DNA from: a virus
Length of the DNA: 50,142 nt
Virus record (IMG/VR): IMGVR_UViG_3300035498_000744
Location: 64,001-114,142 of that record
Reading direction: 5' to 3' (one strand)
This document shows, one piece after another, positions 1,177 to 42,773 of this stretch (positions are counted from its first letter, which is position 1; the number at the start of each line of letters is the position of its first letter). The notes under the pieces were generated by a model. It was given only the letters and a program-made list of their open reading frames with translations. It was not told the DNA's origin and searched no databases. The translations under genes were made by a program, and so were the position numbers.

Positions 1177-1732
1177 ATTTGAAAAAGTTCAAAGATTTGC
1201 GAATGTTGACCTTCCTCTCCCGACACGCGCTACCTCAAATTCCGCAGGGTATGACTTTGTAGTGGCAGAAGATATTGTAATTCCTCCGTATGACTTTATC
1301 AAGACTAAGATTCAAGATGCTCTTTTTGAGAAAGACCGTCCTAAAGATTACTATGCTTTCATTAATCCTCTTACTCTTGATGAAATGGCCTCTGTGACCA
1401 AAGACCTCGGCACTAAAGTTACTTTGGTATCGACTGGCATGAAATGTCATCTTGAACCCGGGCAGTATCTTGAACTTAGCGTGCGGAGCTCCACTCCTTT
1501 GAAGCATTGGCTTATCATGGCTAATGGGGTGGGTATAGTCGATGCGGACTACTACAACTCAAGCGCTAATGAGGGTGAAATCTTCTTTCAAATCATCAAC
1601 TTAGCTCCATTCGCTATTCAACTTAAGCGTGGAGATAGAATCGGTCAAGGTATTATTAAAAACTACTTGACTATTGATGATGACTCCGCGGAAGGGACTC
1701 GAGAAGGAGGTTTCGGAAGCACTGGAACATGA
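1169..1732 (+). CDS. dut: dUTP diphosphatase (dUTPase)
   Basis: Carries the conserved dUTPase motif 5 (REGGFGSTG) at the C-terminus and an AGYD-type motif 3, plus an N-terminal motif by recall. Standard-code ORF ending TGA. Confidence 0.75.
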   Translation: MIKFEKVQRFANVDLPLPTRATSNSAGYDFVVAEDIVIPPYDFIKTKIQDALFEKDRPKDYYAFINPLTLDEMASVTKDLGTKVTLVSTGMKCHLEPGQYLELSVRSSTPLKHWLIMANGVGIVDADYYNSSANEGEIFFQIINLAPFAIQLKRGDRIGQGIIKNYLTIDDDSAEGTREGGFGSTGT

Positions 1733-2205
1733 ATCTTTTAGCATTAGACCAAAGTAGCCATGTATCGGGATACGCGATTTTTAAAGACGGAAAGCTCGAT
1801 TCTTATGGCAAGTTTTCTGTGGATGATGAATCAGTAGACAAAAGATTGGTAAAAATCCGAAAATGGCTAGCTGACTTAATCTTAAATAACTAGATTGATG
1901 AAGTGGTATATGAAGATATTCAATAGCAGAGCAATGTAGCTAACAATGTAAAAACTTTTAAAGTGCTTGCGGAAGTCTATGGTACTATCTCCGAATACCT
2001 TGAAGAATAGGGAATTCCACATAGTTCCGTTCTAGCTTCATCATGGAAGTCAACTCTAGGAATCAAAGGCCGCACACGCCAAGAATAGAAAAAAAATGCC
2101 CAATAGTTCGTAATTGATAAGTATAGCGTCAAGGTGGTGCAAGATATAGCGGATGCAATTTGCATAGGAGAACATCATCTTTCTCATTCCCATGGGGCTT
2201 GGTAA
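1729..2205 (+). CDS. RuvC-like Holliday-junction resolvase (158 aa, 5 in-frame TAG)
   Basis: ATG at 1729 overlaps the dut stop. Hand translation MNLLALDQSSHVSGYAIF...YEDIQ*Q...DIADAICIGEHH matches the RuvC fold and acidic residues. It is coherent only if TAG at 5 positions is a sense codon, and it ends TAA at 2203-2205. Confidence 0.65.
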
Positions 2206-2293
2206 TTTTGGGCAATTTAAATCATTTCATTATCTTCCATTCTCATAAATAGAGTACTAGAAAACTTTATTGATGGGGAGTGGAAGATTTTCT

Positions 2294-2746
2294 ATGCTTA
2301 CTTTTATAGCTAAATATTGGTTAGAAGCGCTATTCGGGGCTATAGCAGCGGGGTTAGGCTATGCTTGTAAGAAGATTTGGAAGTTATATCAAGATGAAAA
2401 GAAACATCAAAAATCAAAAGAACAAGCAGAATTTTATAAAGAGCTCCAAAATCTTCTTGCAAAAAATGGAGAAGAACTTCGTAAAAGTAATGAATAGCTT
2501 GACCAATCTATTCATGTTTTAAATGATGAGGTAGAAGTTGTAAAACATGGTATTTTAAATGTCCAAGGAAAGATATTTAAAAATCAATGCAGAGAATATC
2601 TTGAAGAAGAGCATAAAGTAACTCTTGCGGAATATGAGTCTCTTGAAGAAGACCACGCAATCTATAATTCTTTGGATGGAAATCATGATGGCGATATGTT
2701 GTTTACCATGGTAGAGGAAAAAGTAAAGAAAGATCTATCAGAGTAA
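2294..2746 (+). CDS. Membrane-anchored coiled-coil protein (N-terminal TM helix); 1 in-frame TAG (2495-2497)
   Basis: RBS GGAGTGG upstream of ATG 2294. ORF-track 2270..2497 continues through TAG to TAA at 2744-2746. Confidence 0.5.
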
Positions 2747-2786: not shown

Positions 2787-3059
2787 TTATTTAGCTTCAG
2801 GAGCTGCTAATTTCATATGGTCTTCCATTCTGTGCGTTTTATCATGAGCAATTTTTTCTTCTGGACTAGCTTCTTCCATTGCGGCAACAATAGAAGAGTA
2901 ATACATAGCCTCAGAAAGGTCTTTAATCATATCTACTACTTCGCCTAGCTCACTTGCGGAAACGTGCTCCAGATCATGCGTTTCCTCTTCTACAATTCCT
3001 AATAGGCAGTGCTGAATTTCTTTCATTCTGTGCATCATATTAAGCCACCCTCTCCGCAA
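2787..3059 (-). CDS. Hypothetical small acidic protein
   Basis: ORF-track frame, TAA stop. Confidence 0.45.
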   Translation of the reverse strand: MRRGWLNMMHRMKEIQHCLLGIVEEETHDLEHVSASELGEVVDMIKDLSEAMYYSSIVAAMEEASPEEKIAHDKTHRMEDHMKLAAPEAK

Positions 3060-3072
3060 TTAAGTTAGCATT

Positions 3073-3462
3073 CTAAATGCTAATAGCTTGAGAAGTAATA
3101 TTTCTTACGGTGATTTGAGAGCAGCAACCTTTCGGCACGTCAATAAAGATAGAAGCTGCTATGTTATTATATAGATTGACCGCACCTGGAGTAGAAATCA
3201 TTGTAGCTGAACCTACTGGCTCACCATCTAACGTGATGGCTAAAGTGATGGGGCCAGCGGTCCCCGTAGAAGGAACCGCCACATTGCCCCCAAAGACTAC
3301 TCGATATCTTGCCCTACTTTGACCGCTGGTTATACCACGAAGAGTAGTTATCCCACTCCCCTGACGATGCATTATGGAGCAATTACCATCGACTGGAGTC
3401 GCCGTAAATAATACATCTTGATTGCTACCAACTGTCTGAGCCGCAACAGCTGTAATCTCCAT
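3073..3462 (-). CDS. Hypothetical protein (129 aa)
   Basis: ATG preceded by AAGGAGG, ending TAA. Confidence 0.5.
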   Translation of the reverse strand: MEITAVAAQTVGSNQDVLFTATPVDGNCSIMHRQGSGITTLRGITSGQSRARYRVVFGGNVAVPSTGTAGPITLAITLDGEPVGSATMISTPGAVNLYNNIAASIFIDVPKGCCSQITVRNITSQAISI

Positions 3463-3479
3463 TATTCATTCCTCCTTAA

Positions 3480-4109
3480 TTAGCCGCAATTGCAACCATA
3501 ACCGCCGCTTAAACTTTCAACTGCGGCTACCGCGTAAGGGTAAGATGAATTTGGATTCATCACGGGGTACGCAGGAATTGGGCATGGTTTAAGCTGATTC
3601 ACAAGATACTGATTCTGCGCACACTGACTAAGCTAGAAATTAGCACCAAGAAGCTCGGTATTCTTCGCCTCGAGGCGATCCCGCAGTTCCTGCATAGTAT
3701 TAGCATTAATTAGGGCACGAGTCTATTCGCCCTCTTGATGAATCGCGTTAGTAATCGCGCAAGTGTTTTGTGCATTCTCGAATTTTACGCTATCGATATT
3801 GCGGTTAGTGTTACAGCAGCATGAATCCATGGCGTAACGATTCTCGGCTATAGCGCTATTTACACTGTTGATTCCCTGTGAGACCGAAGTAAATCCAGTA
3901 CAGAGGTCTCTCTGAAGGTTGCCAAAGTTGTTAAGCAAGGTTGTGTTGTTGCTGTAAAATCCGTCGCAGAGCCCTTGCTGGACTCCCCGCACACTGTTTT
4001 CTAACTGTTGAAAATTCATATCCTGGCATAGGTCAGCACGAGTTAAAGCACCCTGGGTGGCAGCATTATTAGCATTACCCCATCCGTTATTGCCATAGCC
4101 CATAAACAT
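3480..4109 (-). CDS. Cys-containing hypothetical protein (209 aa, 2 in-frame TAG)
   Basis: ORF-track 3723..4109 ends at TAG. Read-through gives a coherent 80-aa extension to TAA at 3480-3482. The next gene's RBS and ATG follow immediately. Confidence 0.5.
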
Positions 4110-4155
4110 GAATAAAAATAAAATAATTATCCCAATTTGTTACCCTAAGAGCTTT

Positions 4156-4347
4156 TTATCTCTCAGATCTATTACTTGGTTTTTGTAATAGTTCAGCATA
4201 TCTTTTCAACTCTTCATCGTTACTCTATAGAAGTTTATCGTCCCCTATAAGTAAAAGAGCCAATAGAATTATGAACCATATTTGAAAACTATTATCTTCT
4301 TGTTCTTTAGATTCTCCAGATCTAAAGATAAATTTTTCAATTTCCAT
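4156..4347 (-). CDS. Small single-TM protein (63 aa), 1 in-frame TAG
   Basis: RBS AAAAGGAGAG then ATG. Hydrophobic stretch WFIILLALLLIG. Ends TAA. Confidence 0.4.
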
Positions 4348-4519
4348 TATTACTCTCCTTTTCTTTAAAGTTGTCGCGGCCTCTTGGCAAGATTATATTC
4401 TCTTTCGAGTTTCACTTGCTATGCGTTGCGGCTGGAAGGAGTATTGCCCCCATCCTTCACCTCTGATTAGCATTTCAGCCTTCCAGATTTTTTCCGCGAT
4501 TTACCCATGGCAGATTTGT

Positions 4520-4609
4520 TTACCATGCGCCATTATTGGCGAATCCATCCTTGTTTTCACCGCTTGCAGCAGCAATATCAGACAAACTGTAACCTTGAGT
4601 ATTAAACAT
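4520..4609 (-). CDS. 29-aa peptide (MFNTQGYSLSDIAAASGENKDGFANNGAW)
   Basis: RBS CAAGGAGGAA then ATG, TAA stop. Shares an NNG(A)W motif with the N-terminus of the 3480..4109 protein. Confidence 0.2.
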   Translation of the reverse strand: MFNTQGYSLSDIAAASGENKDGFANNGAW

Positions 4610-4630
4610 ATAAGTTCCTCCTTGTTAATT

Positions 4631-4855
4631 TTAAAGACCCAACATTTGTTTGAAGCTGGCAAACTCTTTGTCAAAGTCTCCTCCCCTAGAAGCGACGAGA
4701 TTCCTAGCTATTTGTTCTATTTGGGTAGTATTTCCTTGCTTAACTAGATTCATTAAATTTGCCATCATAGGATTCCCTTGACTTGATTGTTCTAGCATAC
4801 TCATAACTAACTGCTAGGGGTTTTGCCCATTTTTAATAAGCTCCAATGGATTCAT
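4631..4855 (-). CDS. Hypothetical protein (74 aa), 1 in-frame TAG
   Basis: RBS TAAGGAGATG then ATG, TAA stop. Confidence 0.35.
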
Positions 4856-4871
4856 ATTCACATCTCCTTAT

Positions 4872-5273
4872 TTAGAATTTAATTTGCGGAGCCTCGTTTT
4901 GAGATTCTTCAATCTAGGTTTGAGGCACCGCCGCGAAAGATTGTTTAAGTTGATTAATAGCTCTTTCAAACTCTTCTCTTGTTATGAAGTTTCCCGTTGT
5001 CTCTATTGGCGCAAGTTTTAGCTCGTAAACATTTAATGTCGAAGTACCATCTAGATTAATTTGTTTCGTATATATCTTCTTATTAGCGAGATCTGGGAAA
5101 TAGAATACGGAACCATCAAAGTCTACGCTAGTAGCTCTTACCTCATCAATAGAAGAAACAGGATGGCCTTTAATCCCTATTTGCGGCTGCGCCTAAACCT
5201 AAGCTTGGTCTATGTAGGGCTATCTTCCATAGTAAGAGATAGGTTGCTACTGTGGGTAATATGAATAGTTCAT
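4872..5273 (-). CDS. Gln/Tyr/Pro-rich protein (133 aa), 5 in-frame TAG
   Basis: Codon-by-codon translation gives MNYSYYPQ*QPISYYGR*PYIDQA*V*AQPQ..., with TAG codons lying inside a CAA/CAG-rich glutamine tract. Ends TAA. Confidence 0.45.
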
Positions 5274-5382
5274 TGGCATTTAGTTTTTCTCCTCCTTCAC
5301 ATTTTATTGGGTCTTTCACTAATATATGAAAAACTGGGAAAGTTCATTAACCTACTTTGCCAAAAATTTTTGTAAATTCTCT

Positions 5383-5727
5383 TTAAGCCTAGCCTAGAGT
5401 TGCGGCGTAGCTCCAAAATGGTAATTTCATATCTTCATTAAGTTCTTTCTTAATAAGAATATCATAATTGCATAGGATAGAGTGAAGCGTAGTATAATCT
5501 TTATCTTCTATAATCATTTTCATCATATCAAGGATTTCTTTTTCATATGCTCCTCCTTCACGACTTGCAAGATCTTCTAATGAGGCAAGATAATATTTAT
5601 TCCATTCTTCTCTTGTATAACCTGGACTTAGTCCTGTAGTTTCATAAAAGAATGTTTCAAGTTCTTTAAGTCCTTCTTCTGGAATCATTTCAATTCCTCC
5701 TTCTATTGATATTCGCGGAATTGGCAT
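5383..5727 (-). CDS. Hypothetical acidic protein
   Basis: ORF-track 5389..5727 ends at TAG. Two further codons are read before TAA. Confidence 0.5.
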
Positions 5728-5778
5728 TTTTGCTTAATAGATTTTGCCCAAAAAATTGGGAACCAGCGGGTAAAAAAT

Positions 5779-5812
5779 AAAAGGAACCTAAATATTAGGT
5801 TCCTTTATTCTT
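5779..5812. terminator. Hairpin terminator (AAGGAACCTAA...TTAGGTTCCTT)
   Basis: Perfect 10-bp stem with T/A runs on both sides. Confidence 0.5.
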
Positions 5813-6181
5813 GTTTACTTCTGCCTCAATTAATTGAGTTAAATAAACATTTAAATCTCCAGTAGTCTCGGTAATATATTCCTTTGCGTCATCAGATAAA
5901 ATAGCCATCACCGCAGTTAAAGTCTTATTGAAAGCTTCTTTTTGCGCTTCTTCATCGAAGGTATTAGAATTTTTAAGACTATTTACATAAGTCTAATTTG
6001 TAGCTATTACACAATCTGAAATAGTTTGATAGAGCATATCAGTATACTTCTGGGCAGTTTCATTATTGGTTGAATTTTTAATTTCATCTCGTTTAGCGGA
6101 GAGATAATCTACAAGATACTTGGTTAAAATACCAAGCAAAGGGATTATACATAGCTAGAAAATTTGAGTTAATAGATCCAT
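5795..6181 (-). CDS. Membrane protein (128 aa, 2 in-frame TAG)
   Basis: RBS AAGGAGGAATATTT then ATG. Stop TAA sits inside the hairpin. Confidence 0.45.
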
Positions 6182-6324
6182 AAATATTCCTCCTTATAAG
6201 ATATGAAATAATAGAAAGAAAAATTAAACAACATTGGCCTAAACTTTTGGACTAAAGTATATAATAGTCCTTTGGGAATTTTCATATATAGTAGAATAGA
6301 GTAAGATACTCTTCTACTAATCAG

Positions 6325-6360
6325 GGGAAAGAGTAACTATACTCTTTCCCAATTTTTTAT
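6325..6360 (+). terminator. Terminator-like hairpin immediately upstream of the fibre-gene RBS
   Basis: GGGGAAAGAGTAACTATACTCTTTCCC followed by AATTTTTTATT. Confidence 0.35.
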
Positions 6361-6380
6361 TAAGAAAGGAGAAGATTAGT

Positions 6381-7502
6381 ATGAGTGTAAAGGTTATTTT
6401 ACAAGGTTAGAATAAATCTTCTACTTCCGCTGATGACATAGATTCTGGTACTCTAAGCAGCGATAGATTACCTGTTGTACCTATTGCTAAAGGTGGTACT
6501 GGATTAACGTCTAGTCCAAGTTTATTGACTAATTTAGGTTCCACTAGTACTGCCAATATCTTAACCGCTAGTCCAAGACCCGGTATTACTGGTACATTAG
6601 CTATTTCTCATGGCGGTACTGGCTTAACTTCTAGTCCTAGTATGTTGACGAATCTAGCTTCCACTACGGCTGCTAGTATATTAGCTGCTAGTCCTAGGCC
6701 TGGAGTTACTGGAACTTTACCTGTAGCGAATGGCGGAACTGGTAATACTTCTGTGGATTCTTCGCCAACCTCTGGTTCAACTAAGATGGTAACCTCTGGA
6801 GGGGTTTATACAGCGTTATCGAGTAAACTAGATACCTCTACTAGCAGAACTGCTAATACTGTCTATGCCGCGCCTAACGGAAGCGCTGGAGCAGCGAGCT
6901 TTAGGAGTTTAGTCGCAGCCGATATTCCAGATCTCCCAGCTAGTAAAATAACTAGTGGGACCCTGCCTCTTACTAGAGGAGGAACTGGGGTAACAAGCTT
7001 AGATAGTTTAAAGACTGTGTTGGGGATAAGCGATGGGGGGTTAAAGATAATCCCTACCCTAGTATTTCAATCATCATCATCTTCGTCGACCTTCCCTTAT
7101 GTAAAGATAGAAGCAGATTTCAAACCATATACTTTATTGTGTGTACAAATGTCTGGAGCCGGAGATATAAAGCGCACTAGCACTTCTTATTCAGGTGAAC
7201 TTTATTACCGACTTGGGAGCCTTTCCTCTAATAGTAACAGTGATTGGAGTGCAAATCTCTATACATACACAGTAACAGCACCAATAACGGGCACTGAATC
7301 TTTCGAGTTTACTTCTCCATATGTATTACTATATAGGTATGGCCCCTATGCAAGCTCATCGTATTTTGCCCCGTCTTATCAAAGAAACGGGGGAAGTGCT
7401 TACTATTCAGGCCTTTCTGGTTTCGCTATACACTCGTCTTATGCCACTTTTACGACAATATCATGGGACTTAAAAATATATGGTTTAGAGATAATAATTT
7501 GA
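6381..7502 (+). CDS. Tail-fibre protein (373 aa), the expressed copy: constant N-terminal part plus C-terminal variant A. 1 in-frame TAG (6408-6410)
   Basis: RBS AAAGGAGAAG then ATG. Tandem 35-aa Gly/Thr/Ser repeats (GGTGLTSSPSxLTNLxSTxxAxILxASPRPGxTGTL). Canonical fibre motif ADIPDLPASKITSGTLPLTRGGTGVTSLDSLKTVLGI. Confidence 0.7.
6930..7034. repeat. Inverted repeat, left copy (105 bp, identical to the reverse complement of 8461..8565); lies inside the fibre ORF
   Basis: Checked base by base against 8461..8565. Confidence 0.8.
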
Positions 7503-7674
7503 TATCTATAAATTTTAATTAATTTGGATTTGTAGAAAGTTCATAGAATAAAATTTGCTTTATTTTAAAATTGCAAAATTGTGTTAATATATACCATTAG
7601 ATAATTATTGTCTAACTTCATATATTTGCCGTATAAAGAATATATGGCTATAAATCACTTACTGATAATAAATA

Positions 7675-7745
7675 AAAAACCCATCTTTATAAAGCTTTTT
7701 AATGAATAATAAAGTTTTATAAAGATGGGTTTTTATTTATTGTCA
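7675..7745. terminator. Large bidirectional terminator hairpin in the AT-rich spacer
   Basis: CCCATCTTTATAAAG ... CTTTATAAAGATGGG, a 15-bp stem, flanked by A and T runs. Confidence 0.6.
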
Positions 7746-8145
7746 GAAGGCACGATACAACATATATAGTTGGAAAATGGCTTATTTTATAGGAGATTTT
7801 AAAATTTCTTTGTAAATTTGTCTATATCAAACGCTCTGAAAAGAAACAAAAAAATTACTCAACTAAATCTATGTGGCAATCTATTATGACGCTGCCGCCA
7901 AGCGAAAATTATTAATTAATTATTGCTCATAAATAGATATATAGAGAAGCAGAGCTTAAAAACTCATCTCTAGATAATGTTGTGTATACTCTCGGCAGTT
8001 GCTTCAACACTTTTGTTTTATTCATATTGATTAATTTTATATTATCTATGCCAACTGTTTTAAATCACGTTCAAGATTTATAACCTTTTAAAGAGCTTTT
8101 TTTAATTTTATCTAAAATCAAACTTATTCCCTTGTATTAATACAT

Positions 8146-8460
8146 TTAACCTATAGCGATATAATGATATATGTAATTTTTTGTATTAGCTTCTGTGTAA
8201 TAACCAGAGTCCGACTAGCTGTATGCCTTAAATCCAGTATCTACAATTTCAATAATTACAAGCTTTGAACTATCATAATGGGTGTAAGAAGGGGAGTTTG
8301 GTAGCGCGATTCCTCCTGCCGTTATTTGGTATTTAGTATTATCCCACCCAAACCCCATTTTTGCACTTGCTACAATTACTGCTTTAGGTGTAAAACCCAC
8401 ATTTATATACTAACTTGTCTTACCATCTCCTGTATAACTCCCTACAATAATTTGCATTGA
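8146..8460 (-). CDS. Promoterless, start-less alternative tail-fibre C-terminal cassette (variant B, about 104 aa). In frame with IR-R and silent in this orientation
   Basis: Minus-strand frame runs from IR-R (…LKTVLGISD) through SMQIIVGSYTGDGKTSQYINVGFTPKAV... to TAA at 8146-8148. There is no RBS or start, and the fibre-gene terminator sits directly upstream. Confidence 0.5.
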
Positions 8461-8565
8461 ATCGCTTATCCCCAACACAGTCTTTAAACTATCTAAGCTT
8501 GTTACCCCAGTTCCTCCTCTAGTAAGAGGCAGGGTCCCACTAGTTATTTTACTAGCTGGGAGATC
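8461..8565. repeat. Inverted repeat, right copy (105 bp)
   Basis: Reverse complement equals 6930..7034. Confidence 0.8.
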
Positions 8566-8580
8566 TTATTAAAGCACGAA

Positions 8581-8622
8581 AGGCGGACACTAGAAACATA
8601 AATCTAGTGTCCGCCTTTTTTT
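8581..8622. terminator. Intrinsic terminator (13-bp stem plus T8) abutting the tail-fibre stop
   Basis: AGGCGGACACTAG...CTAGTGTCCGCCTTTTTTTT. Confidence 0.6.
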
Positions 8623-9370
8623 ATTTGTTATCTATAACCGTCAAAACAATAGCATTAGTAGGAGTGTCATCAAGAAAATAAAATGTAATAGTCTTAGCAT
8701 CAGGGTCTGCATCAGCTTTAACTATCTTCATATAGTCAGTAAGATTTCCATCACTAGAAGCAAGAGTAACAATAGGAGGAACCTCTCCGCTCTTCCCGCA
8801 AGTCAATCCACTTACAATAGCACTATAAGTCGTATAATTGCCATCTGTTCCGTATGTGTCTTCACTAAAAGTAGGAATCGTAACCGTATAAGATGTAGTA
8901 GCTACCTCTTTGACTTTTGTATCAACCTCAGTCTTACTATATACACTAAGATTAGACCTGGCATTTGCGGCGGTCGTAGCTCCAGTACCGCCATTACCGA
9001 GACTAAGAGTCCCCACGGACGGAGTCCCATTGCTCAAGCTAACCGCGCCAGTGCCAGTTAAAGTAGAAGGCACATCGCTAGTTAAAACGACGATGCCTGT
9101 GCCAGTTAAGTTAGCTCCACTTCCTACCAAAATCTTCTTATTAGAGCTATCTTTAATGATAACGTCATCAACACTAACTTGCTTTGAGCCATCGCTATTC
9201 GTTAATACATCCGCCGAATAAGCATTAAGCTCTAACCTGGTATCAACATTATCAATCTTAACATCTACGAACATATGTGACTTATCAGTTGAAAAATAAA
9301 CGTATCCTTCCGTAAACGGAATCTAGTTAAGTAGCTCCTCTGGGCCATTATATGGTTTAAACAAAGCCAT
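8621..9370 (-). CDS. Tail-fibre protein (249 aa); 1 in-frame TAG
   Basis: RBS AAGGAGA then ATG 9370, TAA stop. Motif LSLGNGGTGATTAANARSNL is typical of phage fibres. Confidence 0.65.
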
Positions 9371-9386
9371 GATTAATTAATCTCCT

Positions 9387-11432
9387 TTATATCCTAGAAA
9401 TTGTGGGCACTGTGCCAGTTGCCCCCGCAAGGCTTGAAAAAGTACCCCATTCAGAAATCTTTTTATCTACTTCCTCTTTAGAATAGACTTCCGCACGTTT
9501 ATCTGTAATTAGCTATTTTAAAGTCGTTTCTAAAGCATTAACATAGGTTACGCTATAAGCTTTATTAGTATCTCCTTCAGCTACAGCTTCATTTTCAATA
9601 AGATTAGAAACACCACCGGTTAGCTAAACTCGACCCCATTCTCCACTAGTCATAGTAGAGTCGCTATACACGTAGAAATACCAATAAGAAATCTCGGTTT
9701 TTTCTACTAAATCTTGATAAGTTACCGCTACTACTCCATCCGCCGCAGGAAGCTCTCCAAGATCAGTTTTAATTTTCTCCCCGACCGAAGCAACCTTATC
9801 CTCAACGTCATTACTAGTATAAGTAAACGAACCTACAATTCTTAAAGAAGAACCAGTAGGGCCTTTAATAGTACCTAAAGCCTCATTCCACGTCTGTCCG
9901 TCCCACTTATAGAACTTGCCTTCTTCGGTATGAATGAAGATATCTCCGGGCTTAAGACTGCTAGTATCTGTGGGAAATACCATACCTATGTTAATATTGC
10001 TTCCTTCAGCAATAGTGAAATCAAAAGCTATAGTATCAGCATCCGCAATCTCTATTTCTACTTTACTATTGTTTCTCTCTTCAGAGCCCAAGAAAGTAGG
10101 AGTATTAACCTTAAACTTAGGTATTTTTGGCAAATTAAATTTCAGCTTCTAACCAAGCTCGTCAACCGCATTATCAAAAGTCTGCTCAACGCTAACTTCT
10201 GCCCGTTTATCGTCTCCTTCTCTTGTTAAATCAAAAGGAGAAAACCATTCTGTTGAGACTTGCGGGAGCGGCGCTCTTAGACAAGCTTTATAGGTAAATT
10301 CAGTTTGACTGCCCGTCGCACTAGTTACAAGATAAATAAAACCAGTTGGCTCGTTAATGTAATAATCACCAGTAGCATAGTTTAACACTTCGCTATCAGT
10401 AAGAATCTTAACGCCATTGCTATCTTTATATTTACTTCCAAGCAGTGAGCCATAGTAAAACCTCACCGCACGAGGCAGAGAAAACACGAGATCAGTATAA
10501 TATTTTTCTATCCCATCTTGAGTTTCATTTGATTCACTCTTGTCAACCTTAGGAGCTTGATCTGGAGCGAGTACAACCTAGGAATCTGCGAGCCTTACTT
10601 CTCTCGTAGAAGGCAAGGTAAAAATCAATGTTGGCTTATTTACATCATACCCAGCTTCTTCTTCTCCAAGAAGCCTAACTTTAGGAGCAGTATTCGGAGC
10701 ATTCTAAATAGCATCAGCAACCTACACTAATTGCGCTTGGGGGATAGAAACCCGCAAAATTGGCTCTTCTATAGAGCCAGTATCGTTGGGATAATCATCG
10801 GTGGGACCAATATCTAGCCTTACTTGCGGGGACTCCCCTGCGTCGAGCTTTGTATCTAGAACAGCCGTCCTAATAACCTAGGATTTCGGCAAACTAAATT
10901 TAAACTCTTTGGTATAGCCATCATTCGCTGCGGTCTCAAGAACTTCTATCGTTGGTGTTTCTCCGACTGCCAATGGAACATATTGCTATTCCCCATTCTT
11001 AAAATCCCAACTATGTGGTAAATTTAGCTAGATTTGAGGATAGTCAACATCGCTATAGTCTACACTAAAGCTAGGAGCTTCATTCGCAGCAATAGCCTAA
11101 GAAGTAAAATTCAACTTGGGAGTATTACCAGTCATAGAAGAAATTAATTCATAGCTCAATCCATTACTTTCAGAACTATGATCCTCATCATAAGCCTTTC
11201 TCCATAATGTAGAGTTATAAGTCTTACCATTATAGGCGGTTAAATCAATCTACCGATTCGCTTCATAACCGCTACCATTAGGCATTCCATATGATACAAC
11301 TACAAATTCTCCAACTTGAATTGGAGATACCCAACCTCGGTCTATATCATTATCTAATTCTACTTTAGTACTAAAGATGGTTTTAATGGAAAAATCCTGC
11401 CCATTTACACCACCGTAAAAACTATCTGCCAT
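9387..11432 (-). CDS. Large tail/baseplate structural protein (about 681 aa; many in-frame TAG)
   Basis: RBS AAGGAGGTG then ATG 11432. ORF-track pieces 11250..11432, 10149..10487 and 9624..10133 share one frame and join through TAG. Ends TAA at 9387-9389. Confidence 0.55.
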
Positions 11433-12039: not shown

Positions 12040-15000
12040 TTATACTCGTGTTAAAACCTCTGTAGCAGTAATGCTCATCGTCCCATTATAAGCAAGAGGC
12101 AAAGAGAATTGAGTAATCTAGTAATTACCATTAATTCCGCTTTCTCTATCCTCTATATGAATGACATTGTTCGGCTCCATATAGTATTTAGGTAGACAAG
12201 TAATCGAGATAGAAGTATTATAACTCAAGTTCTAATACATCATTTCTCTTATTCTATCGAAACAGCTTATTCCAGTTGAGCTAATTGAGAATAAGCTATA
12301 TAATTGCGGGGTCCACACGAAATATTGTTGCCCAGTAGCTTGACATTGAGCAATTAAATCTTTAGCTTTAGAATTATTCTCAATAAACACTATGTCTGGG
12401 ACTTCCTTATTATATAAGGAATTTATGTCAGAACTATTAATTACTTTAGTCCTTCTGCCTATCTGGCTCACGGAATATTTTCCTATTGCCGATCCAGTGT
12501 CAATAAAATCTAGCCAATAGTTTAATTTTTCTGGGTTCTCAAAAACATCCGGGTTCCAATACCTTGTAGTCTTCCATTTCTCTTTAGTCGGGTCGTATAA
12601 GCCTCGCCATTCCGCAATCAATTCAGCATCATAATAGTTATCATAAACATTATTAGTAGCTTGTTCTCTTCTCTATAATTCTTCTTGCCATTCTTCAATT
12701 AATTTAGAATCGTGCTCATCTTCGCAAATACTACTAGCCACTTGCGCAATTAGCGCTTTACGATACAACTCTTCTCGCCATTCGTCGCATGGACTCCCGA
12801 CTAAAGTCGCTTCATACCCATCGACCGCATATCCGCTAGCTATATCATTAAAATCATATCTAATTATTAAATTAGCTTCTTTACTCTTGATTTCCCACAT
12901 ATAATAGCTAGCATAGTCAATCGGCGGTTTCTTGTCAATAGCAAGATGATAGCGAATACTCACTTTAGCTCCAGAAGAAGTTTCTCGCTCTCCCCAAACA
13001 TAGAAGTCATTCTTAATATTAGAATAATTTGGAGACCTAGTGATTGCGGTAATAGTATCAAGATCAGTAAGCGAATATTGAAACTTTTTTGCGCTATTAT
13101 AATCTTTGATATAATCCTCTGCGGATAGGTCATTTAGGGGATTCCCGCTATTTAAATAATTTTTTATCTCTTGGAAAACAAAGCGACCATCTAGATCATA
13201 AAAATATTCATAATTTCCCAGCGTTTCTACTATTTTATCTAAGAGAGTTGTAACCGTGTCTCCCGCCTCTAGAATTAATTCGCTAGGATAAGTAAAATCA
13301 GTTTCTTCATACCCTACATCTTCTCCATAAGAATAATTATACGGAAAATCATCACTTGCAGAAAAACTAACTCCAGAATAATCGCTGCTAAAATAGATTG
13401 GAGAATCTCCTAGGTACTTCACAAGCATTTTCACTGTATCATCTATGTCACTAATAATTATGTTATTAACGGGCTCTCCACCCCAATGGTTAACCGCTTC
13501 AAAGATAATTTCATAGATCGTAGGATAGTAGATTTCTATATCTCCATTATCTAGATAAACATATTTCTCATGAAAGGTTGTAGAAGCGGGAAGCGTGCCT
13601 CCCGCAGTTCCATCAAGCAAACACATCTTGTCTTTCCCTGTAACCGAAATATTCCATCCACTAGTAGAGCGAGATATATTGGCTGTAGAAATTACAAACA
13701 AGCCGCATGGAAACCAAATAATGTCTCCATAAGAAGAATAAGACTTGAATGGATTCTTGTATCCTATTGATACTTTTATCTTTTTATTTGCTGAGATTTC
13801 GTTATCTATATCTTCAATATTACTAGTATCATAAGAAGCCAGCATTGAAAAACTAATAGTTCTCCTTACACTAGAAGAACCATTAACGCTTAAATTACCG
13901 CTTGTTATATTGCCCTATATCTCTTTAATTGGCTTCTCATCAAAAGTAAGAAGAGTTATTTTAATATATTGCGTGCGGAGATTGAGCTTGTCAAGTTTAG
14001 CAAGGAAGGTTGTATCATTCAAATATTCAAACATTTTTTACACTCCTTGCTACTTCATTGTCTTCTAGGTGGTTAGACATTTGTAATTAATTACGCAAAA
14101 ACTCGGTGCAGCTAATGCTATATATTTAACATTGCCATCTAGATCGCTTAAGGTATATCTTCCTGTCGGTCCAATCCTGATTGTAGTTATATTATTTTCA
14201 TTCCTACCAATATTAAGGATAGTACCTTCATCTGCTTCAATATCAAAGTAAGTTACATGGCTAAATTCATAATATCTAGTTCCGTCAAATAGCTCACCAT
14301 CAACTTCTTCAAATCTTGTATCATATATAAACTCAACTTGTTTTTGAGTCTCTTCTTTGATAATATCATAAATATTAACTGTCTTATATAGGTTAAAATT
14401 AGTATTATCTACAAGAATATCTCCCTGACTATCATATTTAATAGAAGTAGTTCTAGTTGAATTGCTATAAATTCTGTATGTCTCGCTATTCGCATAGTTA
14501 TAATTATAGCTTTTCAAAACTTCATCTGTACCAGTAAATATCCCAGAAATTTGTCCCCAAATTCTAGATGTATCTATCGCAGAAACAACTAAAACAGAAG
14601 TATCAATAATCTAATTGAGCTAACAAGTATAACTAATAACAAGAGGTTGAATAGAAGAAATTAACTTCAAGGAATCAATATCATATTTCAAGCTATAGAT
14701 TTTACCAGGGGGGATGGTAATTGTTTTACCATTGACTTCAAGTTTTACAGTTCCAACTAACGGACCTTCAAGAGCTTTTTCTAAGTCTTTATACGCCTAG
14801 TATTGTTGGTCATACTCAGAATAATCTTCTCCATTGTCTATAGCCTCATTCTTCTAAGCCATTAATTCTAGCTTCTTCGCGGTTAAATCTATTTCTGGAT
14901 AAGTCTATACGTTTATAGAAGTAATCTTTAAGAGGTTATATTTATAACCTCCACCTATACTTACTTCCTCTTGCTTCTTGATTATATCATAAAGATTTTC

Positions 15001-16725
15001 TCCAGCAGCATACAAGCCACTAATTTGTCCAAAGGAGCGAACTTTCTCGTCGTTACTAAGATACTCAAATCCTCCAATGTCGATAATACCAAACTCATTT
15101 AAGTTTTCAAGAGTATTTTCCAGAACCTCATAAGCAGTAGCAGAAAAAGAAAATATCATGCGTCCAAGCTCTGTTTTAGGCGTTAATGATACATTATGTA
15201 AAACTACTATTATATTGCCTTCGGTGGGAGATTTATATAGCTTATAATCAAAATTATTCAAGAACTCTTCGACTTTTTCCCTAAAACGTCGTTCCATGTA
15301 TACATTATCTGGAGTTATATTAGTATTAAGTTCTTGATCCTCATCATATTTATCGGAAGAAATAACATTCTCTCCATCATACCAATAACCATTGCTGTTC
15401 AAAGAAAAGAAAGTCTAATCACTATCCATATGCAAGCTAATAGTTCCACTAATAGGAAATTCTGCATAATATGCTTGGCCATTTCGAACTAAACTTGGAT
15501 ATTTACCGCCAAGGGTGTCTTGCTTTGTAGTCAAAGTGGTATGCTTAAAACTACTTAGCTATTGGTCAAACTGCATTCTTAATTGCACGTCATCATGATA
15601 TAAGAAAGAATACTCAAAATCGACAGATCTAGCAAGCTTTTCGGTTTCATATAAAGGCGATGTCCGCAATCCCTCAGAATTTTCTTGCTAAATGGCATAC
15701 TTATATTTAACTCCGCTTTCAATAATAAAATCTTGAAAGATAAGTGTGTTATTAAAGTCTTGCTTATTGAATAGTAAGTATTTCAAATCTTCCCATATAG
15801 TAAAGTCTGTATATTCAGAAGCTCTAGAAATAACAAGATTGCCGCTGAAGGTTTCATCCGCAGTTAAGTATAAATTAATGCAACCATTTTCTGCATTATA
15901 AGGTAAGCTATCAACAGCAAAGAAAGATACTCCATCTAGCGTAAACAAATAGCTCTATGTAGCCATAAAGGTATAAGAGTTTGCGGAAGCCTCATATCCA
16001 TTTATTGTCTAGATATAGTATTCTACAGTATAGGTAGCGTTATTAATAAGAGCATACTAAAATCTATATGTATCAGTGGTCTCAACAGAACTATTATGCT
16101 ACAACCATCCAGTATCTTGGAGGACTTCCATTTCTTCGTCATATAAGATAAATCTATACTTATCTTCTGCTTCATTGTTTTGTTCTTCAATAGTACAAGA
16201 ACCAGTAAAAGTAGGAGTAAGAGAAGATTCTGTACGCTTCTTTGAGATAACATCTTGCTTAGCTTTTTCTGCGTTCTTTATATAAACAGTTGGCTTACTA
16301 ATAGCCTTAATGACCATAACAGTGGACCATTCAGAAAAAGCGCTGTTATCTATCTATTCTTTCTTCCAAGCAGCAAACTTTTCTACACTAGTATATTTAG
16401 CATTTGTACCGAAGCGTACCTAAATCTTATATAAATACCCAGGCTACCAAGTTTCGCTTAAATCACTTGAAAGAATTGCTACTCCGTAAGTCGTGCCGGT
16501 TATAGGCGCCGCAGGAGTATCTTTGTAAATAATACCATCTGGATATAAAGATGTATTTACAATGCTCTTATTATTAGACTATCTTACTACCCTAATCTAT
16601 ACATGGCCTATATCCTTAAGAGAAGTTATTTGCTACAAGGCAAAATAAACCATGTAACTATTTGTATCATATAGAAAAGCGGCTTGAGTGCTCTACAGGG
16701 TAGGAGGATAAAGACTAATGGGCAT
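12040..16725 (-). CDS. Giant tail-tip/baseplate structural protein (about 1561 aa)
   Basis: RBS AAAGGAGGTG then ATG 16725. The seven ORF-track pieces between 12232 and 16317 (e.g. 16099..16317, 12673..13845) all share one frame and are separated by TAG where checked. Ends TAA at 12040-12042, inside the next RBS. Not every codon was verified. Confidence 0.5.
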
Positions 16726-18035: not shown

Positions 18036-21000
18036 TCACTTATACTTTGCATAAATACCAGTTATATTATTGCAATTGTCAAATGATACTGTATTAGCTG
18101 AAAAGGTAATCGTTCCTCTAGAATTAATATTCCATCTTCCATTGCTATAAACGCCTGCTGTCAAACCAATTACCGGTTCATCACTTGTGCCTTGCCCATC
18201 CGCAGAAATATAGACGGAACCTCCTCGCCCCCTAACAGCAATTTCCGCGTTCTTAGACTCTAGCACAATTTTGCCTCCGCTATTCTAACTAGTAATTAAT
18301 CCAATATTATCTCCACTGTAATAACTTGTTGTCTAGCAAAGATTCAACGTACTTCCTATCTTTATCCCCTAAGTACTTGATAAAGAAATATTATTTGCAG
18401 ATAATCCATTGCTGTTTATAGTCCAGCCACCAATTTCTCCCTCATCGGCATAAATAGTTCCCCTAATTTCAGCTCCTTCGCAACTCATCTTACCAGAGCT
18501 ATCAATCCAAAAATAGGTTCCACTAGAAAAACTAGGATTAGTATTTTCCGTTTCATTTCCGGTTAAACTATCTGCATTAACCCAAATCCTGTAGCCATTA
18601 GCACCAGAACTGGCAAGGCCAATTTTACCATTACTAGATGTGAGCCTATTGCTAAGAATTTTCCAACCGCCAATGGTTCCTTCTTTTGCAGTGAGTGCGC
18701 CAGTCTTAGTTACTAGAAATTTAGCACTAGAGCTGATAGAGCCACCAATCTAAATAGCGTAGGTATCACTGGAATTACTATTTAATTCTACATAATTCAA
18801 TCCACTACCACTGAATATCTTTCCAGTCTATATACTCCATCCGCCAGAACGACCTGTTCCGCCAATCTGTCCTTCCGTAGCATAAATTGTGCCTTGAATA
18901 TCGGCCCCAGTAGCCTTTAATTTCCCATCGTATGTTACATAGAAATTTTCCTCATTATTTGAAGATTCGGAATCCTATGAGTAGCCAACTCCTATGGCCT
19001 TAACATCACCAGCAACAGCCTTATCAGACAATCTTATATACATTCCATTTGGAGCTGACTATATAGTTCCATTACTTTTTACAGTAACATCTCCACCATG
19101 GATAACTCCACTAGTCCCATCTATAGTAATCTAGCCACCGCCACTTTTAGCTCCAAAATATGCCTTGCCGTCCTACATTAAGCCAAAAGTATTGACACCA
19201 TTCTGATATCCATATAGTCCTATTTTTTCTTGTCCGCTATCTTTGCCCATAACTACGCCGGTAAAACGATTATAGCTATCTTTTTCTCCAGCGCCAATCT
19301 AAGGAGCAAGTAATCCAGTCTGATAATAATATGTATCGGCTTTATAAGTGCTACTATTCAAAGCTATTTGAGTATAATATCCATTATCATCACGAGAATA
19401 ATAGACACGACCCTTGATAAAAGATCCCGAATCATCGAGTTTATAAATACCAGAAACCTAAGTGCCGTCCCATCCATTTATAGCTTCATTCCCATAAGCA
19501 TCGAGATACATAACAATAGGATGTAAAATATATTGAGAATCCGTGCACTTAAGTTGAAGGATTCCTATATTGCTATCATTACTGCTTGTATTTTCGTATA
19601 TAAAGGAATTTGCAGGCTTAAGATAAAAGAGATTCCCATCTTGCTCTATATTAAGAATGGAGGTATTTAAGGAAAGTATCGTGCTATTGCTAGATATATC
19701 TTTACTATTATATAAGAAAGTAATATTATTACTATAGAATGAAGGATTTAGCCCAGAAGTTGTATATTTAATATAACTAGGTATGCTAGAAATATCTACT
19801 TTAGAATAATCAATTCCTCCTACAGCAACATCAATAGGATAAAAAGCATAAATATAGGTTTTCTTATTGTCTGCTTTGTCAGTAATAGTGACCTAAACCT
19901 TAACGAAGAACTCAAGATTTGCGGAAGTCGACTCAGAGTTTATTGTACCTTGTCCTTTAACTACTACCTAATTAGTATCCTTCGCTGACAAAGTAACGTT
20001 GGCCTCTTCCCATTTATACGTTAAGCTGTAGCTACTATTGTTGTTTAATAGCTCGCCATTTCTATAAACATAGCATTTTAAAGAAAGAGAATTTTTCCAT
20101 CCATTATTATAGATTAAAGGATGCAACCCGCTTAGTTTATTGCCATCGCTATCACATGGTCTAATGGCTGTTATATAGGTAGTTCCATTAGTTCCTTGGT
20201 CTCCGTCTTTAAGGAATAATATCTCCTTGTCAAAAGTATAAATCTATTCATCTATAGTTACTATTCTTACTTTTAAAGTATTATTGTTGGAGTTAATGTT
20301 GTATTTCTATTTAATAGTATAATGTAAAATATTGGTATTGTCAACCCAAAGATTTTCAAACATGGAATTTGGGGGCTAGAGTTTCGTTCCCGTAGAAATC
20401 TTCTCTCCATCTGGGCTCAGCCATTCTATCTTATAAGAATTTCCAGTACCTTCTTTCCAAGTCAGTACAACTGATAATGTACGCTCTTTTTCCGAATCTT
20501 CAAAGGTGACGTCTCCATTAGCATCATATCTAAAATTATCTTCTCCGTCATAAGAAATATATAAATCTTCCTCTGATTTACTATTAACAATAGTCTACTC
20601 TAACGTTCCTATTATTGTTGTTCTATCATAGCCATAAACCGCACAGTAAAACGTCACGCTACTATATAAAAGATAATTGTTTACTTTAATAGAGCTCTAC
20701 TTTTTACCGTTCGTAACTTCAAGATAACTTCCGTCTGGGTAAGATAAATACCAATCTCCGAACAAAGACACATCATTTTTATTATTAATTAACTACAGCT
20801 TAATAGTATCTCCAGATGTAATTTGCTATATTTCATAATCATAGGAACTATTAAGGTTGTATACCGTAATCTCAGCACTTAAAGTAGTAGTTTCTTTGTA
20901 GGTTACTACAAGTTTATATCTGCTCTCGTGAAAAATATCATTGCTATCAAGAGTAAGAAGATTAAATTCTTGATTATTGGTTTTCTCTACTGCTTTCCAG

Positions 21001-42711: not shown

Positions 42712-42773
42712 TTGTAACCACCCCCTTCTTTATTATATCTTAAAAAAGTCTAGGTTTAATTATCTAGTTTTGT

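What the first reader, a model, noticed from the sequence alone, without database searches (positions are those of the whole stretch)
6381..8565. Mu G-segment-like invertible tail-fibre switch
Two perfect 105-bp inverted repeats (6930-7034 and 8461-8565, verified base by base) flank a 1.4-kb segment. The left repeat lies inside the expressed plus-strand fibre gene, downstream of its constant N-terminal repeats. On the minus strand the right repeat continues in the same reading frame into a second, different C-terminal domain (variant B). Variant B has no start codon or RBS, and the upstream fibre gene's terminator sits directly in front of it. Inversion between the repeats would swap C-terminus A (157 aa) for C-terminus B (about 104 aa) on the same N-terminal shaft. 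No invertase gene is adjacent in this window.
Basis: seen in the sequence. Interest (0 to 1): 0.85.

Follow-up and report, generated by a model that had tools for sequence, protein, structure and literature searches.

The report
Two-tip tail-fibre cassette, invertase missing
A gut phage that reads the TAG stop codon as glutamine carries one tail-fibre gene with two alternative tips set between perfect 106-bp inverted repeats, so a flip would swap the tip, but no flipping enzyme is nearby and every assembly found shows the same orientation.

Summary
A perfect 106-bp inverted repeat (6929-7034 / 8461-8566) is the only long repeat in the window. The left arm lies in frame inside the + strand tail-fibre gene (6381-7502) and encodes its last shaft repeat. 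The right arm runs in the same frame on the - strand into an intact 104-codon cassette, B (8460-8146).

B is open only because this phage reads TAG as Gln, which I verified independently. B is a real fibre-tip domain: it aligns end to end with the C-termini of six complete fibres and models as a beta-sandwich. A strong bidirectional terminator sits mid-segment, and a TAA closes the frame just outside the right arm. The layout therefore matches the Mu G and P1 C segments.

Activity is not shown:
- The 50-kb window holds no site-specific recombinase.
- Two relatives carry a serine recombinase at the syntenic spot beside the fibre; here that gap is 200 bp.
- The repeats contain no gix/hix-like site.
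- Nine contigs from seven samples, and the window, all have tip A fused to the shaft.
- None of 106 related fibre loci has such a repeat.

Most likely this is a poised two-cassette switch flipped rarely by homologous recombination. A silent relic of a second fibre gene is the main rival. It is a new variant of a known kind, of moderate interest.

The parts
6279..6362 (+). Conserved non-coding element just upstream of the fibre start. It has the invariant core GTAAGATAC, then a hairpin (6325-6350) followed by a T-run. It probably regulates the fibre gene.
   Evidence: blastn finds 75-83% identity in at least 10 related phage loci. The alignment shows the conserved core and compensatory changes in the stem. 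The terminator-like scan picks up the hairpin.
6381..7502 (+). Expressed tail-fibre gene, form A (373 aa). It has an RBS (AAGGAG) and an ATG at 6381. An in-frame TAG (read as Gln) lies at 6408-6410. Three shaft repeats are followed by the tip.
   Evidence: Sequence and ORF lists. PHROG tail fibre phrog_11393, E=5.6e-7. 1022 homologs, all fibre-like. The N-terminus MSVKVILQGQ matches the fibres of relative L075, one with TAG and one with CAA at codon 10.
6929..7034 (+). Left arm of the inverted repeat. It encodes DLPASKITSGTLPLTRGGTGVTSLDSLKTVLGISD, the last shaft repeat and the conserved junction before the tip.
   Evidence: The same peptide junction precedes unrelated tips in P0001, P0002, P0237, P0156 and others.
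7035..7502 (+). Tip A (155 aa plus stop), the form fused to the shaft in every assembly found.
   Evidence: A few short fibres (P0208, P0237, P0243) align along it and share the C-terminal IYG(I/M/L)(K/E) ending. The structure model was too poor to use (pLDDT 42).
7503..8145 (.). AT-rich non-coding spacer (24% G+C) between the two convergent cassettes.
   Evidence: No substantial ORF in any frame with TAG read as sense (longest open run 69 codons). No Rfam family matches.
7658..7749 (.). Bidirectional intrinsic terminator: a long hairpin with U-tracts on both strands, near the middle of the segment. It would serve whichever cassette is being read.
   Evidence: RNA folding gives dG -44.5 kcal/mol (+ strand, z -11.5) and -35.9 kcal/mol (- strand, z -9.0). 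Several contigs break at or just beyond it.
8146..8460 (-). Silent tip B cassette: 104 codons plus TAA, with two in-frame TAG (read as Gln) at 8412-8410 and 8217-8215. It lies in frame with the right repeat arm.
   Evidence: Chance of such an open frame is 0.16% (shuffles) or 1.9% (off-frame windows of real genes). It aligns end to end with the C-termini of six full fibres. Weak Pfam DUF7483 hit. AlphaFold model pLDDT 71, all-beta.
8461..8566 (-). Right arm of the inverted repeat, identical to the left arm. An in-frame TAA (8568-8566) lies immediately outside it on the - strand and overlaps its last base.
8578..8619 (+). Terminator hairpin between the right arm and the neighbouring gene. It has a 17-bp stem and a T7 tail on the + strand only.
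8621..9370 (-). Neighbouring fibre-like structural gene (249 aa, one TAG), conserved in relatives. It is context for the switch, not part of it.
   Evidence: PHROG tail-fibre families. tblastn finds it in the relatives.

Best explanation
This is a two-cassette receptor-binding tip locus in a roughly 135-kb gut phage. The phage reads TAG as Gln, is Phass-1-like, and probably infects Bacillota.

The fibre gene has a constant N-terminal anchor and shaft, then the last shaft repeat (the left repeat arm), then tip A. A second promoterless tip, B, lies tail to tail with A behind an identical copy of that last shaft repeat (the right arm).

One reciprocal crossover between the two 106-bp arms would invert 7035-8460. 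That would fuse the shaft in frame to B and park A as the new silent cassette. The central bidirectional terminator would serve either form.

No dedicated invertase is linked and no invertase-type site is visible. I therefore infer that flipping is rare and relies on general homologous recombination during phage replication. A RuvC-like resolvase is encoded 4 kb away, but the rest of the recombination machinery was not seen.

The result would be a population dominated by the form that works on the current host (A), with a small reservoir of B-form genomes.

Shown: the repeats, the frames, the integrity and homology of B, the terminators, the TAG recoding, and the absence of a recombinase in the window. 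Inferred: that inversion occurs, how it occurs, and that the two tips bind different receptors.
For: - The 106-bp repeat is perfect, sharply bounded, and the only long inverted repeat in 50 kb.
- Both arms are in the fibre reading frame, so the predicted recombinant is an uninterrupted 322-aa fibre.
- B stays open over 104 codons (0.16-1.9% by chance). It uses TAG as Gln like the late genes. Its first TAG aligns with Gln in homologs P0064 and P0025.
- B aligns end to end with the C-terminal domains of six complete fibres. In each, the domain directly follows the same shaft-repeat junction.
- The B model is a 7-strand beta domain (pLDDT 71, pTM 0.65). Its weak fold matches include phage fibre and baseplate domains.
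- The silent right arm is not under coding selection in this orientation, yet it is 100% identical to the left arm. This points to recombination between the arms or to a very recent origin.
- The mid-segment hairpin is a strong terminator on both strands. A TAA closes the frame just outside the right arm.
- A RuvC-family resolvase lies at 1729-2205.
- The same fibre locus is a diversification hot spot in relatives, which carry DGRs or a second fibre there.
- Tail-fibre genes are an enriched class among gene-altering programmed inversions (PMC9881135).
Against: - Only one orientation is seen. The left junction (shaft, repeat, A) appears in the window, L027, L084 and L085. The right junction (flank, repeat, B) appears in the window, L027, L028, L029, L030 and L110. 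A 114-kb contig was reported only as having the same neighbouring genes.
- Seven guessed protein products of the flipped form are absent from a 15-billion-protein collection, while both controls are present.
- No serine or tyrosine recombinase turned up among the window ORFs scanned (all of 100 aa or more and most shorter ones, apart from the two giant ORFs), nor by tblastn with the relatives' enzyme.
- The arrangement is not recurrent. 39 loci of related phages and 106 loci with related fibres have no comparable repeat. It could be a recent accident rather than an evolved device.
- The phage population sampled is almost clonal (3 SNPs in 10.7 kb). Perfect repeat identity therefore cannot separate ongoing homogenisation from recent origin.
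- The fold of tip A could not be established.
Confidence: 0.42

Rival explanations
1. Silent relic. The phage once had two convergent fibre genes, as its relative L075 has two fibre genes. The 5' part of the second gene was lost, leaving its last shaft repeat and tip B. One recent gene-conversion or duplication event made the repeat identical. No regular switching occurs, and B is on its way to decay.
For: - No invertase is present and only one orientation is seen in ten sequences: the window and nine contigs.
- The arrangement is unique among 145 related loci.
- Relatives do carry paralogous fibre genes at this locus.
- An in-frame relation of repeat and B comes automatically if B derives from a full fibre gene.
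- The population is nearly clonal, so the arrangement may be young.
Against: - B has no frameshift and no TAA or TGA in 104 codons.
- Perfect identity over exactly one shaft repeat implies the arms have recombined. Conversion between inverted repeats is normally accompanied by crossovers, which are inversions.
- The paralogous fibre N-termini in L075 are only 71% identical.
Confidence: 0.3
2. True site-specific inversion system of the Gin/Hin or Bacteroides/Bifidobacterium invertase kind. Its recombinase is encoded outside this 50-kb window (the genome is about 130-145 kb) or by the host.
For: - Two relatives encode a 204-aa serine recombinase directly beside the orthologous fibre gene (Pfam Resolvase, E=3.7e-27).
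- About two thirds of this genome was not available to search.
- P1 shows that long inverted repeats can accompany short crossover sites (my own knowledge).
Against: - The syntenic slot is only 200 bp of intergenic DNA here (6182-6380).
- The relatives that have the recombinase show no inverted repeats around their fibres.
- That enzyme is closer to the Sin/Bin3 and gamma-delta resolvases than to Gin.
- The repeats hold no gix/hix-like site and no dyad symmetry above shuffled controls.
Confidence: 0.17
3. B is expressed in place as a free 103-aa protein from its own ATG (8457), using read-through transcription from the upstream structural operon. The repeat is incidental.
For: - An ATG is the second codon of B, and one gene caller predicted exactly this 103-aa product (P0124).
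- The hairpin in front of B has a poor U-tract on the - strand, so some read-through is conceivable.
Against: - There is no Shine-Dalgarno sequence at a workable distance: only GGGGA, 11 nt upstream.
- In all six homologs the domain is the C-terminal end of a long fibre, never a free protein.
- A tip with no shaft or anchor has no obvious way to join the virion.
Confidence: 0.05
4. Assembly artefact, or a mobile element with 106-bp terminal inverted repeats inserted into the fibre gene.
For: - Inverted repeats and palindromes often break or mis-join assemblies. Contigs do end at the repeat edges (6931, 8457) and at or near the central hairpin (7686, 7709, 7780).
Against: - The same arrangement was assembled independently in seven samples by different pipelines, and contigs cross each arm.
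- The left arm encodes a canonical fibre shaft repeat that continues in frame into tip A. It is therefore native gene sequence, not a transposon end.
- There is no target-site duplication and no transposase.
Confidence: 0.02

Closest known systems
Phage Mu G segment (Gin) and phage P1 C segment (Cin); also e14 P segment (Pin) and p15B Min
   Same: Both have a constant fibre N-terminus and two alternative C-terminal coding segments in opposite orientation. The segments lie between inverted repeats that cut through the fibre gene. Inversion would swap the receptor-binding tip, and only one form is expressed at a time. As in P1, the repeat is much longer than a minimal crossover site.
   Different: Here there is no linked gin/cin/pin gene, no gix/cix-like site and no enhancer. 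There are no U/U' fibre-assembly genes in the segment. Only the terminal domain is swapped (155 versus 104 aa). The host is probably a Gram-positive gut bacterium. The genes use TAG as Gln. Both orientations have not been observed.
Gene-altering programmed inversions and shufflons in prophage receptor-binding genes (Bifidobacterium Rin shufflon, PMC6109161; survey in PMC9881135)
   Same: Both involve intragenic inverted repeats in phage tail-fibre or receptor-binding genes of gut bacteria, producing alternative C-termini.
   Different: Those systems carry a dedicated invertase next to the variable gene and usually several short repeats. This locus has one long repeat pair and no invertase.
Diversity-generating retroelements (DGRs) acting on the orthologous fibre in sister phages (IMGVR_UViG_3300035517_000267 and IMGVR_UViG_3300029305_001775)
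   Same: The same locus and the same fibre N-terminal anchor (SVKCI-TGQ) are involved. The presumed purpose, varying the receptor-binding tip, is also the same.
   Different: The mechanism is entirely different: reverse transcriptase, Avd and template/variable repeats. None of these is present in the window.
Flip-flop isomerisation between long inverted repeats by general recombination (plastid genomes, herpesvirus segments)
   Same: Both have a long perfect inverted repeat and no site-specific enzyme. Inversion is expected as a by-product of recombination-dependent replication.
   Different: Those repeats are kilobases long, and the isomers are equimolar and functionally equivalent. Here the repeat is 106 bp, the isomers would differ in phenotype, and only one is seen.

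Membership tests
Gin/Cin/Pin/Hin-type invertible segment | A pair of inverted repeats bounds a segment that cuts through the fibre gene | tested here: met
   The arms are 106 bp and 100% identical, at 6929-7034 and 8461-8566. The left arm lies inside the fibre ORF.
Gin/Cin/Pin/Hin-type invertible segment | Two alternative C-terminal coding sequences in opposite orientation, each in frame with the constant part after inversion | tested here: met
   A runs 7035-7502 on the + strand and B runs 8460-8146 on the - strand. Both continue the frame of the repeat. B is homologous to the C-termini of real fibres.
Gin/Cin/Pin/Hin-type invertible segment | A small serine invertase gene lies next to the segment | tested here: not met
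   Pfam and PHROGs scans of the window ORFs gave no Resolvase or integrase hit. tblastn with the relatives' recombinase found nothing (best E=1.1). The rest of the genome was not available.
Gin/Cin/Pin/Hin-type invertible segment | 26-bp crossover sites with imperfect dyad symmetry (gix/hix/cix consensus, recalled from memory) | tested here: not met
   The degenerate consensus gives one chance-level match elsewhere in the window and none in the repeats. The best dyad in the repeat is 8 of 12 positions, the same as in shuffles.
Gin/Cin/Pin/Hin-type invertible segment | Both orientations coexist in populations | tested here: inconclusive
   All nine junction-spanning contigs from seven samples have the window's orientation. 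Predicted products of the flipped form are absent from the protein collection. Raw reads could not be examined, so a minority form is not excluded.
Gin/Cin/Pin/Hin-type invertible segment | Fibre-assembly (U/U'-type) genes travel with each variable part | tested here: not met
   The 643-bp spacer has no substantial ORF (longest open run 69 codons) and 24% G+C.
Shufflon (Rci-type) | Multiple short (about 19-bp) repeats, several cassettes and a tyrosine recombinase | tested here: not met
   There is one repeat pair, two cassettes and no tyrosine recombinase in the window.
Diversity-generating retroelement | Reverse transcriptase, a template repeat and a variable repeat at the 3' end of the target gene | tested here: not met
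   The window has none of these. Two relatives have them at the orthologous fibre.
Recombination-driven flip-flop between inverted repeats | A perfect repeat longer than the minimal pairing length for homologous recombination | tested here: met
   106 bp at 100% identity. That this length is sufficient is my own knowledge of RecA and phage recombinase requirements. It was not tested here.
Recombination-driven flip-flop between inverted repeats | Recombination functions are available during replication | tested here: inconclusive
   A RuvC-family resolvase lies at 1729-2205. No strand-exchange or annealing protein was seen in the window, and the rest of the genome was unavailable.
TAG-to-Gln recoded Phass-1-like phages | In-frame TAG in late genes, aligning with Gln in homologs | tested here: met
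   ORF content doubles and a 2893-aa ORF appears when TAG is read as sense. TAG positions align with Q 895 times, with the next residue (E) at 223. In a relative, TAG encodes the Q of the serine-recombinase motif YARVSTRDQ. The major capsid protein is 52% identical to that of Phass-1.

The most novel reading that the evidence does not exclude
This is a working host-range switch that needs no dedicated invertase. A 106-bp in-frame repeat lets the phage's own replication-coupled recombination flip the fibre tip at a low rate. Within one clade of TAG-recoded gut phages, the same fibre locus would then have been fitted with three different diversification devices: a DGR, a second fibre gene, and a recombinase-free inversion cassette.
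Probability: 0.3. Interest if true: 0.65.

Novelty: new variant of a known kind. Interest (0 to 1): 0.45.

Why it matters
Swapping fibre tips by inversion is textbook biology for Mu and P1. It has always been tied to a dedicated invertase, and to temperate phages of Gram-negative hosts or to prophages.

If this locus flips, large uncultured stop-codon-recoded gut phages could hedge their host range with nothing more than a short in-frame repeat. Such switches would be invisible to searches that start from invertase genes.

The locus also gives a natural comparison of three tip-diversification strategies at a single site in sister phages. It flags the conserved junction ...RGGTGVTSLD-LK--LGISD as a modular splice point for engineering fibres of this family.

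If the locus does not flip, it is a clean snapshot of how such switches could arise from duplicated fibre genes.

Tried and rejected
- DNA similarity to GenBank phages: none for the fibre region.
- Exact search for the repeat in the IMG/VR and JGI contig collections: no match, so this phage's fibre region is not in them.
- Contigs in the flipped orientation: look-ups by exact protein returned only the window's orientation. The chimeric product itself may not be looked up. An exact-sequence check of seven guessed flipped products was negative.
- Walking beyond the window to find a recombinase: only 0.7 kb (left) and 3.6 kb (right) could be reached. Neither stretch holds one. A 114-kb contig is on record but could not be displayed.
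- Comparable inverted repeats in relatives: none in 39 loci of related phages or in 106 loci with related fibres (positive control). The one hit, a 61-bp repeat in L101, flanks an unrelated amidase region.
- The relatives' recombinase as the missing enzyme: it is absent from the window, and its own loci show no invertible segment.
- Similarity between A and B: hhalign gives 1.6% probability, so I do not claim they share a fold.
- Structure of tip A: pLDDT 42, unusable.
I got round this with P0124.
- Rfam: nothing in 5700-8700.
- Mobile-element and assembly-artefact readings: rejected (see rival explanations).
Full report
**1. The observation**

The repeat finder on 5000-11000 returns one outstanding pair. 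The arms are 6929-7034 and 8461-8566, 106 nt long, 100% complementary and 1426 nt apart. A self-BLAST of the whole window confirms this as the only long inverted repeat in 50 kb. Otherwise the description is accurate.

**2. The genetic code had to be settled first**

Under the standard code the window is oddly poor in ORFs. Reading TAG as sense doubles the ORF content, from 27.6 to 60.3 kb in ORFs of at least 100 codons, and produces a 2893-aa ORF with 77 in-frame TAGs.

Three independent checks show that TAG means Gln:
- At the window's in-frame TAG positions, related phages have Q 895 times and another stop 390 times. The next most common residue is E, at 223.
- In a sister phage, the Q of the serine-recombinase catalytic motif YARVSTRDQ is encoded by TAG.
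- The first TAG of cassette B aligns with Q in two homologs.

The window holds no suppressor tRNA. The major capsid protein is 52% identical to that of Phass-1, a 136-kb human-gut phage described as TAG-to-Gln recoded (PMC10607447). It is 37% identical to the capsid proteins of roughly 140-kb Enterococcus phages. IMG/VR relatives are 100-148 kb. The window is therefore about a third of a large phage that probably infects Bacillota.

**3. Anatomy of the locus**

The fibre gene runs 6381-7502 on the + strand (373 aa, one TAG at codon 10). It lies opposite to the long structural operon on the - strand. It matches a PHROG tail-fibre family and has more than 1000 fibre-like homologs.

Its N-terminus, MSVKVILQGQ, is shared with the fibres of sister phages. 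In one of these, codon 10 is again TAG; in another it is CAA.

The left repeat arm encodes residues 184-218. This is the last copy of the shaft repeat (ITSGTLP..RGGTG.TS...L...LG). It is followed by the 155-aa tip A.

On the - strand the right arm continues in the same frame into 104 codons, cassette B, ending at TAA 8148-8146. B has two in-frame TAGs. Directly outside the right arm the frame is closed by TAA (8568-8566).

Between A and B lie 643 bp of 24% G+C DNA with no substantial ORF. Its centre is a 92-nt hairpin that folds strongly on both strands and carries U-tracts on both sides. The energies are -44.5 and -35.9 kcal/mol, with z-scores of -11.5 and -9.0. It is a bidirectional terminator that would serve whichever tip is being read.

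The hairpin at 8578-8619 has its T-run on the + strand.

**4. Is B real?**

- An open frame of 104 codons occurs in 0.16% of shuffles and in 1.9% of off-frame windows of real genes.
- B aligns end to end with the C-terminal domains of six complete fibres (P0064, P0019, P0072, P0025, P0031, P0001). All share the motifs V.G.Y.G.G, I.LGF.P.AV and GF.V, and a C-terminal Y.Y.A.(G/K/R). In each case the domain directly follows the last shaft repeat.
- With those homologs as the alignment, AlphaFold gives a seven-strand all-beta domain (pLDDT 71, pTM 0.65).

Tip A has only a few distant relatives among short fibres, and they share its ...IYG(I/M/L)(K/E).. ending. Its model was unusable (pLDDT 42). 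A and B show no detectable similarity to each other.

The peptide encoded by the repeat is a widely conserved junction that precedes many unrelated tips. It is a natural module boundary.

**5. Is there an invertase?**

Not in this window. All ORFs of 100 aa or more, apart from the two giant ones (18036-22085 and 22140-30821), and most shorter ones were scanned against Pfam or PHROGs. The hits were:
- dUTPase-like, RuvC, holin and portal;
- structural families;
- a GIY-YIG/NUMOD3 endonuclease.

The last gene of the window looks like FolD, from the Pfam annotation of an identical contig. No Resolvase or integrase family was hit.

The comparative picture is informative. In the closest IMG/VR relative (131.5 kb; L075, L082, L088), a 204-aa serine recombinase sits between a fibre gene and the holin (Pfam Resolvase, E=3.7e-27). 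In a second relative (144 kb; L074 joined to L089), the gene order is p249, [RT, Avd, DGR-target fibre], recombinase, holin, and onward. This is the window's order, except that the window has no recombinase and no DGR. The matching gap in the window (6182-6380) is only 200 bp.

tblastn with the relatives' enzyme finds nothing in the window. That enzyme is closer to the Sin/Bin3 and gamma-delta resolvases than to Gin. Its own neighbourhoods show no invertible segment.

The repeat itself has no gix/hix-like site and no dyad symmetry above shuffled controls.

**6. Is there orientation heterogeneity?**

Exact-protein look-ups recovered nine further contigs of this phage from seven samples. All are 99.97-100% identical to the window. 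The samples are JGI 3300035495, 3300035497, 3300035499, 3300043077 and 3300043104, and Logan SRR11792099 (fibre region) and SRR11792607/8 (left end of the window only).

Every contig that crosses an arm has the window's orientation:
- Shaft, repeat, A: L027, L084, L085.
- Flank, repeat, B: L027, L028, L029, L030, L110.

Contigs end at the repeat edges (6931, 8457) and at or near the central hairpin. That is what repeats do to assemblers, and it says nothing about inversion.

Seven guessed gene products of the flipped form are absent from the 15-billion-protein collection, while both controls are present.

This does not exclude a minority form. Mu lysates grown lytically are also almost pure G(+) (my own knowledge). 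It does show that A is the working form in nature. Raw reads could not be examined.

**7. Is the design recurrent?**

No. None of 39 loci from related phages, and none of 106 IMG/VR loci carrying related fibres, has an inverted repeat of at least 30 bp at 85% identity or better (control).

Instead, the orthologous fibre in the two relatives is diversified by a DGR, with reverse transcriptase, Avd and template/variable repeats. One relative also has a second, divergently transcribed fibre gene. The locus is thus a hot spot for tip variation, served by different devices in different lineages.

**8. Interpretation**

The architecture is that of a G/C-segment-type tip switch. One crossover in the repeat gives an in-frame shaft-B fibre of 322 aa and silences A.

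The defining enzyme and site of the Gin family were tested and not found, so I do not file this locus as a member of that family.

Mechanisms, in order of likelihood:
- **Rare inversion by general homologous recombination across the 106-bp arms (0.42).** This is favoured by three points: the perfect identity of an arm that is not under coding selection, the intact state of B, and the two-way terminator.
- **A relic of a second fibre gene with no regular switching (0.30).** This is favoured by the uniform orientation, the uniqueness of the arrangement and the near-clonal population (3 SNPs in 10.7 kb).
- **A site-specific enzyme encoded in the unseen two thirds of the genome or by the host (0.17).**
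- **Independent expression of B from its own ATG (0.05).**
- **An assembly artefact or a mobile element (0.02).**

**9. Novelty and score**

Fibre-tip inversion is a classical mechanism. Tail-fibre genes are a known enriched class among gene-altering programmed inversions (PMC9881135; Bifidobacterium Rin shufflon, PMC6109161).

What is new here:
- the setting, a large TAG-recoded Phass-1-like gut phage;
- the long perfect in-frame repeat with no linked invertase;
- the contrast with DGR-bearing sister phages.

I rate it a new variant of a known kind, interest 0.45. The deciding experiment is simple: read-level junction counts.

Noticed in passing
whole window, e.g. 22140-30821 (-), 18036-22085 (-), 14038-16725 (-): The phage reads TAG as glutamine. 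With TAG as sense, the late structural genes become long ORFs, including one of 2893 aa with 77 TAGs. Most small + strand genes at both window ends contain none. The window holds no suppressor tRNA.
   Followed up: yes
L082 2119-5495 (= IMGVR_UViG_3300035517_000267) and L074+L089 joined (IMGVR_UViG_3300029305_001775): In two sister phages the orthologous fibre gene is the target of a diversity-generating retroelement. The element comprises an Avd-like gene, a reverse transcriptase (YMDD motif) and a template/variable repeat pair at the fibre's 3' end.
   Followed up: partly
L075 18424-19035 (-); L089 about 2100-2693 (+): A 204-aa serine recombinase sits between the fibre and the holin in two relatives. 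It hits Pfam Resolvase and is nearest to the Sin/Bin3 and gamma-delta resolvases. It has several in-frame TAGs, one of which encodes the Q of the catalytic-motif YARVSTRDQ. No target repeats were found near it, and it is absent from the window.
   Followed up: partly
window 6279-6362; L089 1844-1921; L071 20533-20624; L075 about 21290-21350: A roughly 85-nt non-coding element lies upstream of the fibre start. It is conserved at 75-83% identity in at least 10 relatives. It has an invariant GTAAGATAC core followed by a hairpin with compensatory stem changes and a T-run. It is not in Rfam. It may be a late-gene regulatory or terminator/antiterminator element.
   Followed up: partly
L075 15846-21844 compared with window 3040-7502: The block running from the fibre through the lysis genes is inverted in the closest relative compared with the window and the second relative. 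Large rearrangements with an end point at the fibre locus have therefore occurred in this clade.
   Followed up: partly
window 42773-45946 (-), 43456-43506 and 45323-45374, 46259-46900 (-): The region upstream of the portal gene, presumably the terminase, is broken into six or seven short ORFs in different frames. It contains a 52-nt direct repeat (94% identity). A GIY-YIG/NUMOD3 homing endonuclease lies beside it. This suggests introns or other intervening sequences.
   Followed up: no
window 7658-7749: The long central hairpin coincides with the ends of three contigs (7686, 7709, 7780). It is a weak point for short-read assembly.
   Followed up: partly
window 1729-2205 (+): A RuvC-family Holliday-junction resolvase gene with five in-frame TAGs lies among otherwise nearly TAG-free + strand genes (next to the dUTPase at 1169-1732).
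   Followed up: no
window 3480-4109 (-): A cysteine-rich 209-aa protein (CCC and CNCG motifs; PHROG 16490, function unknown) is conserved beside the holin in the relatives.
   Followed up: no
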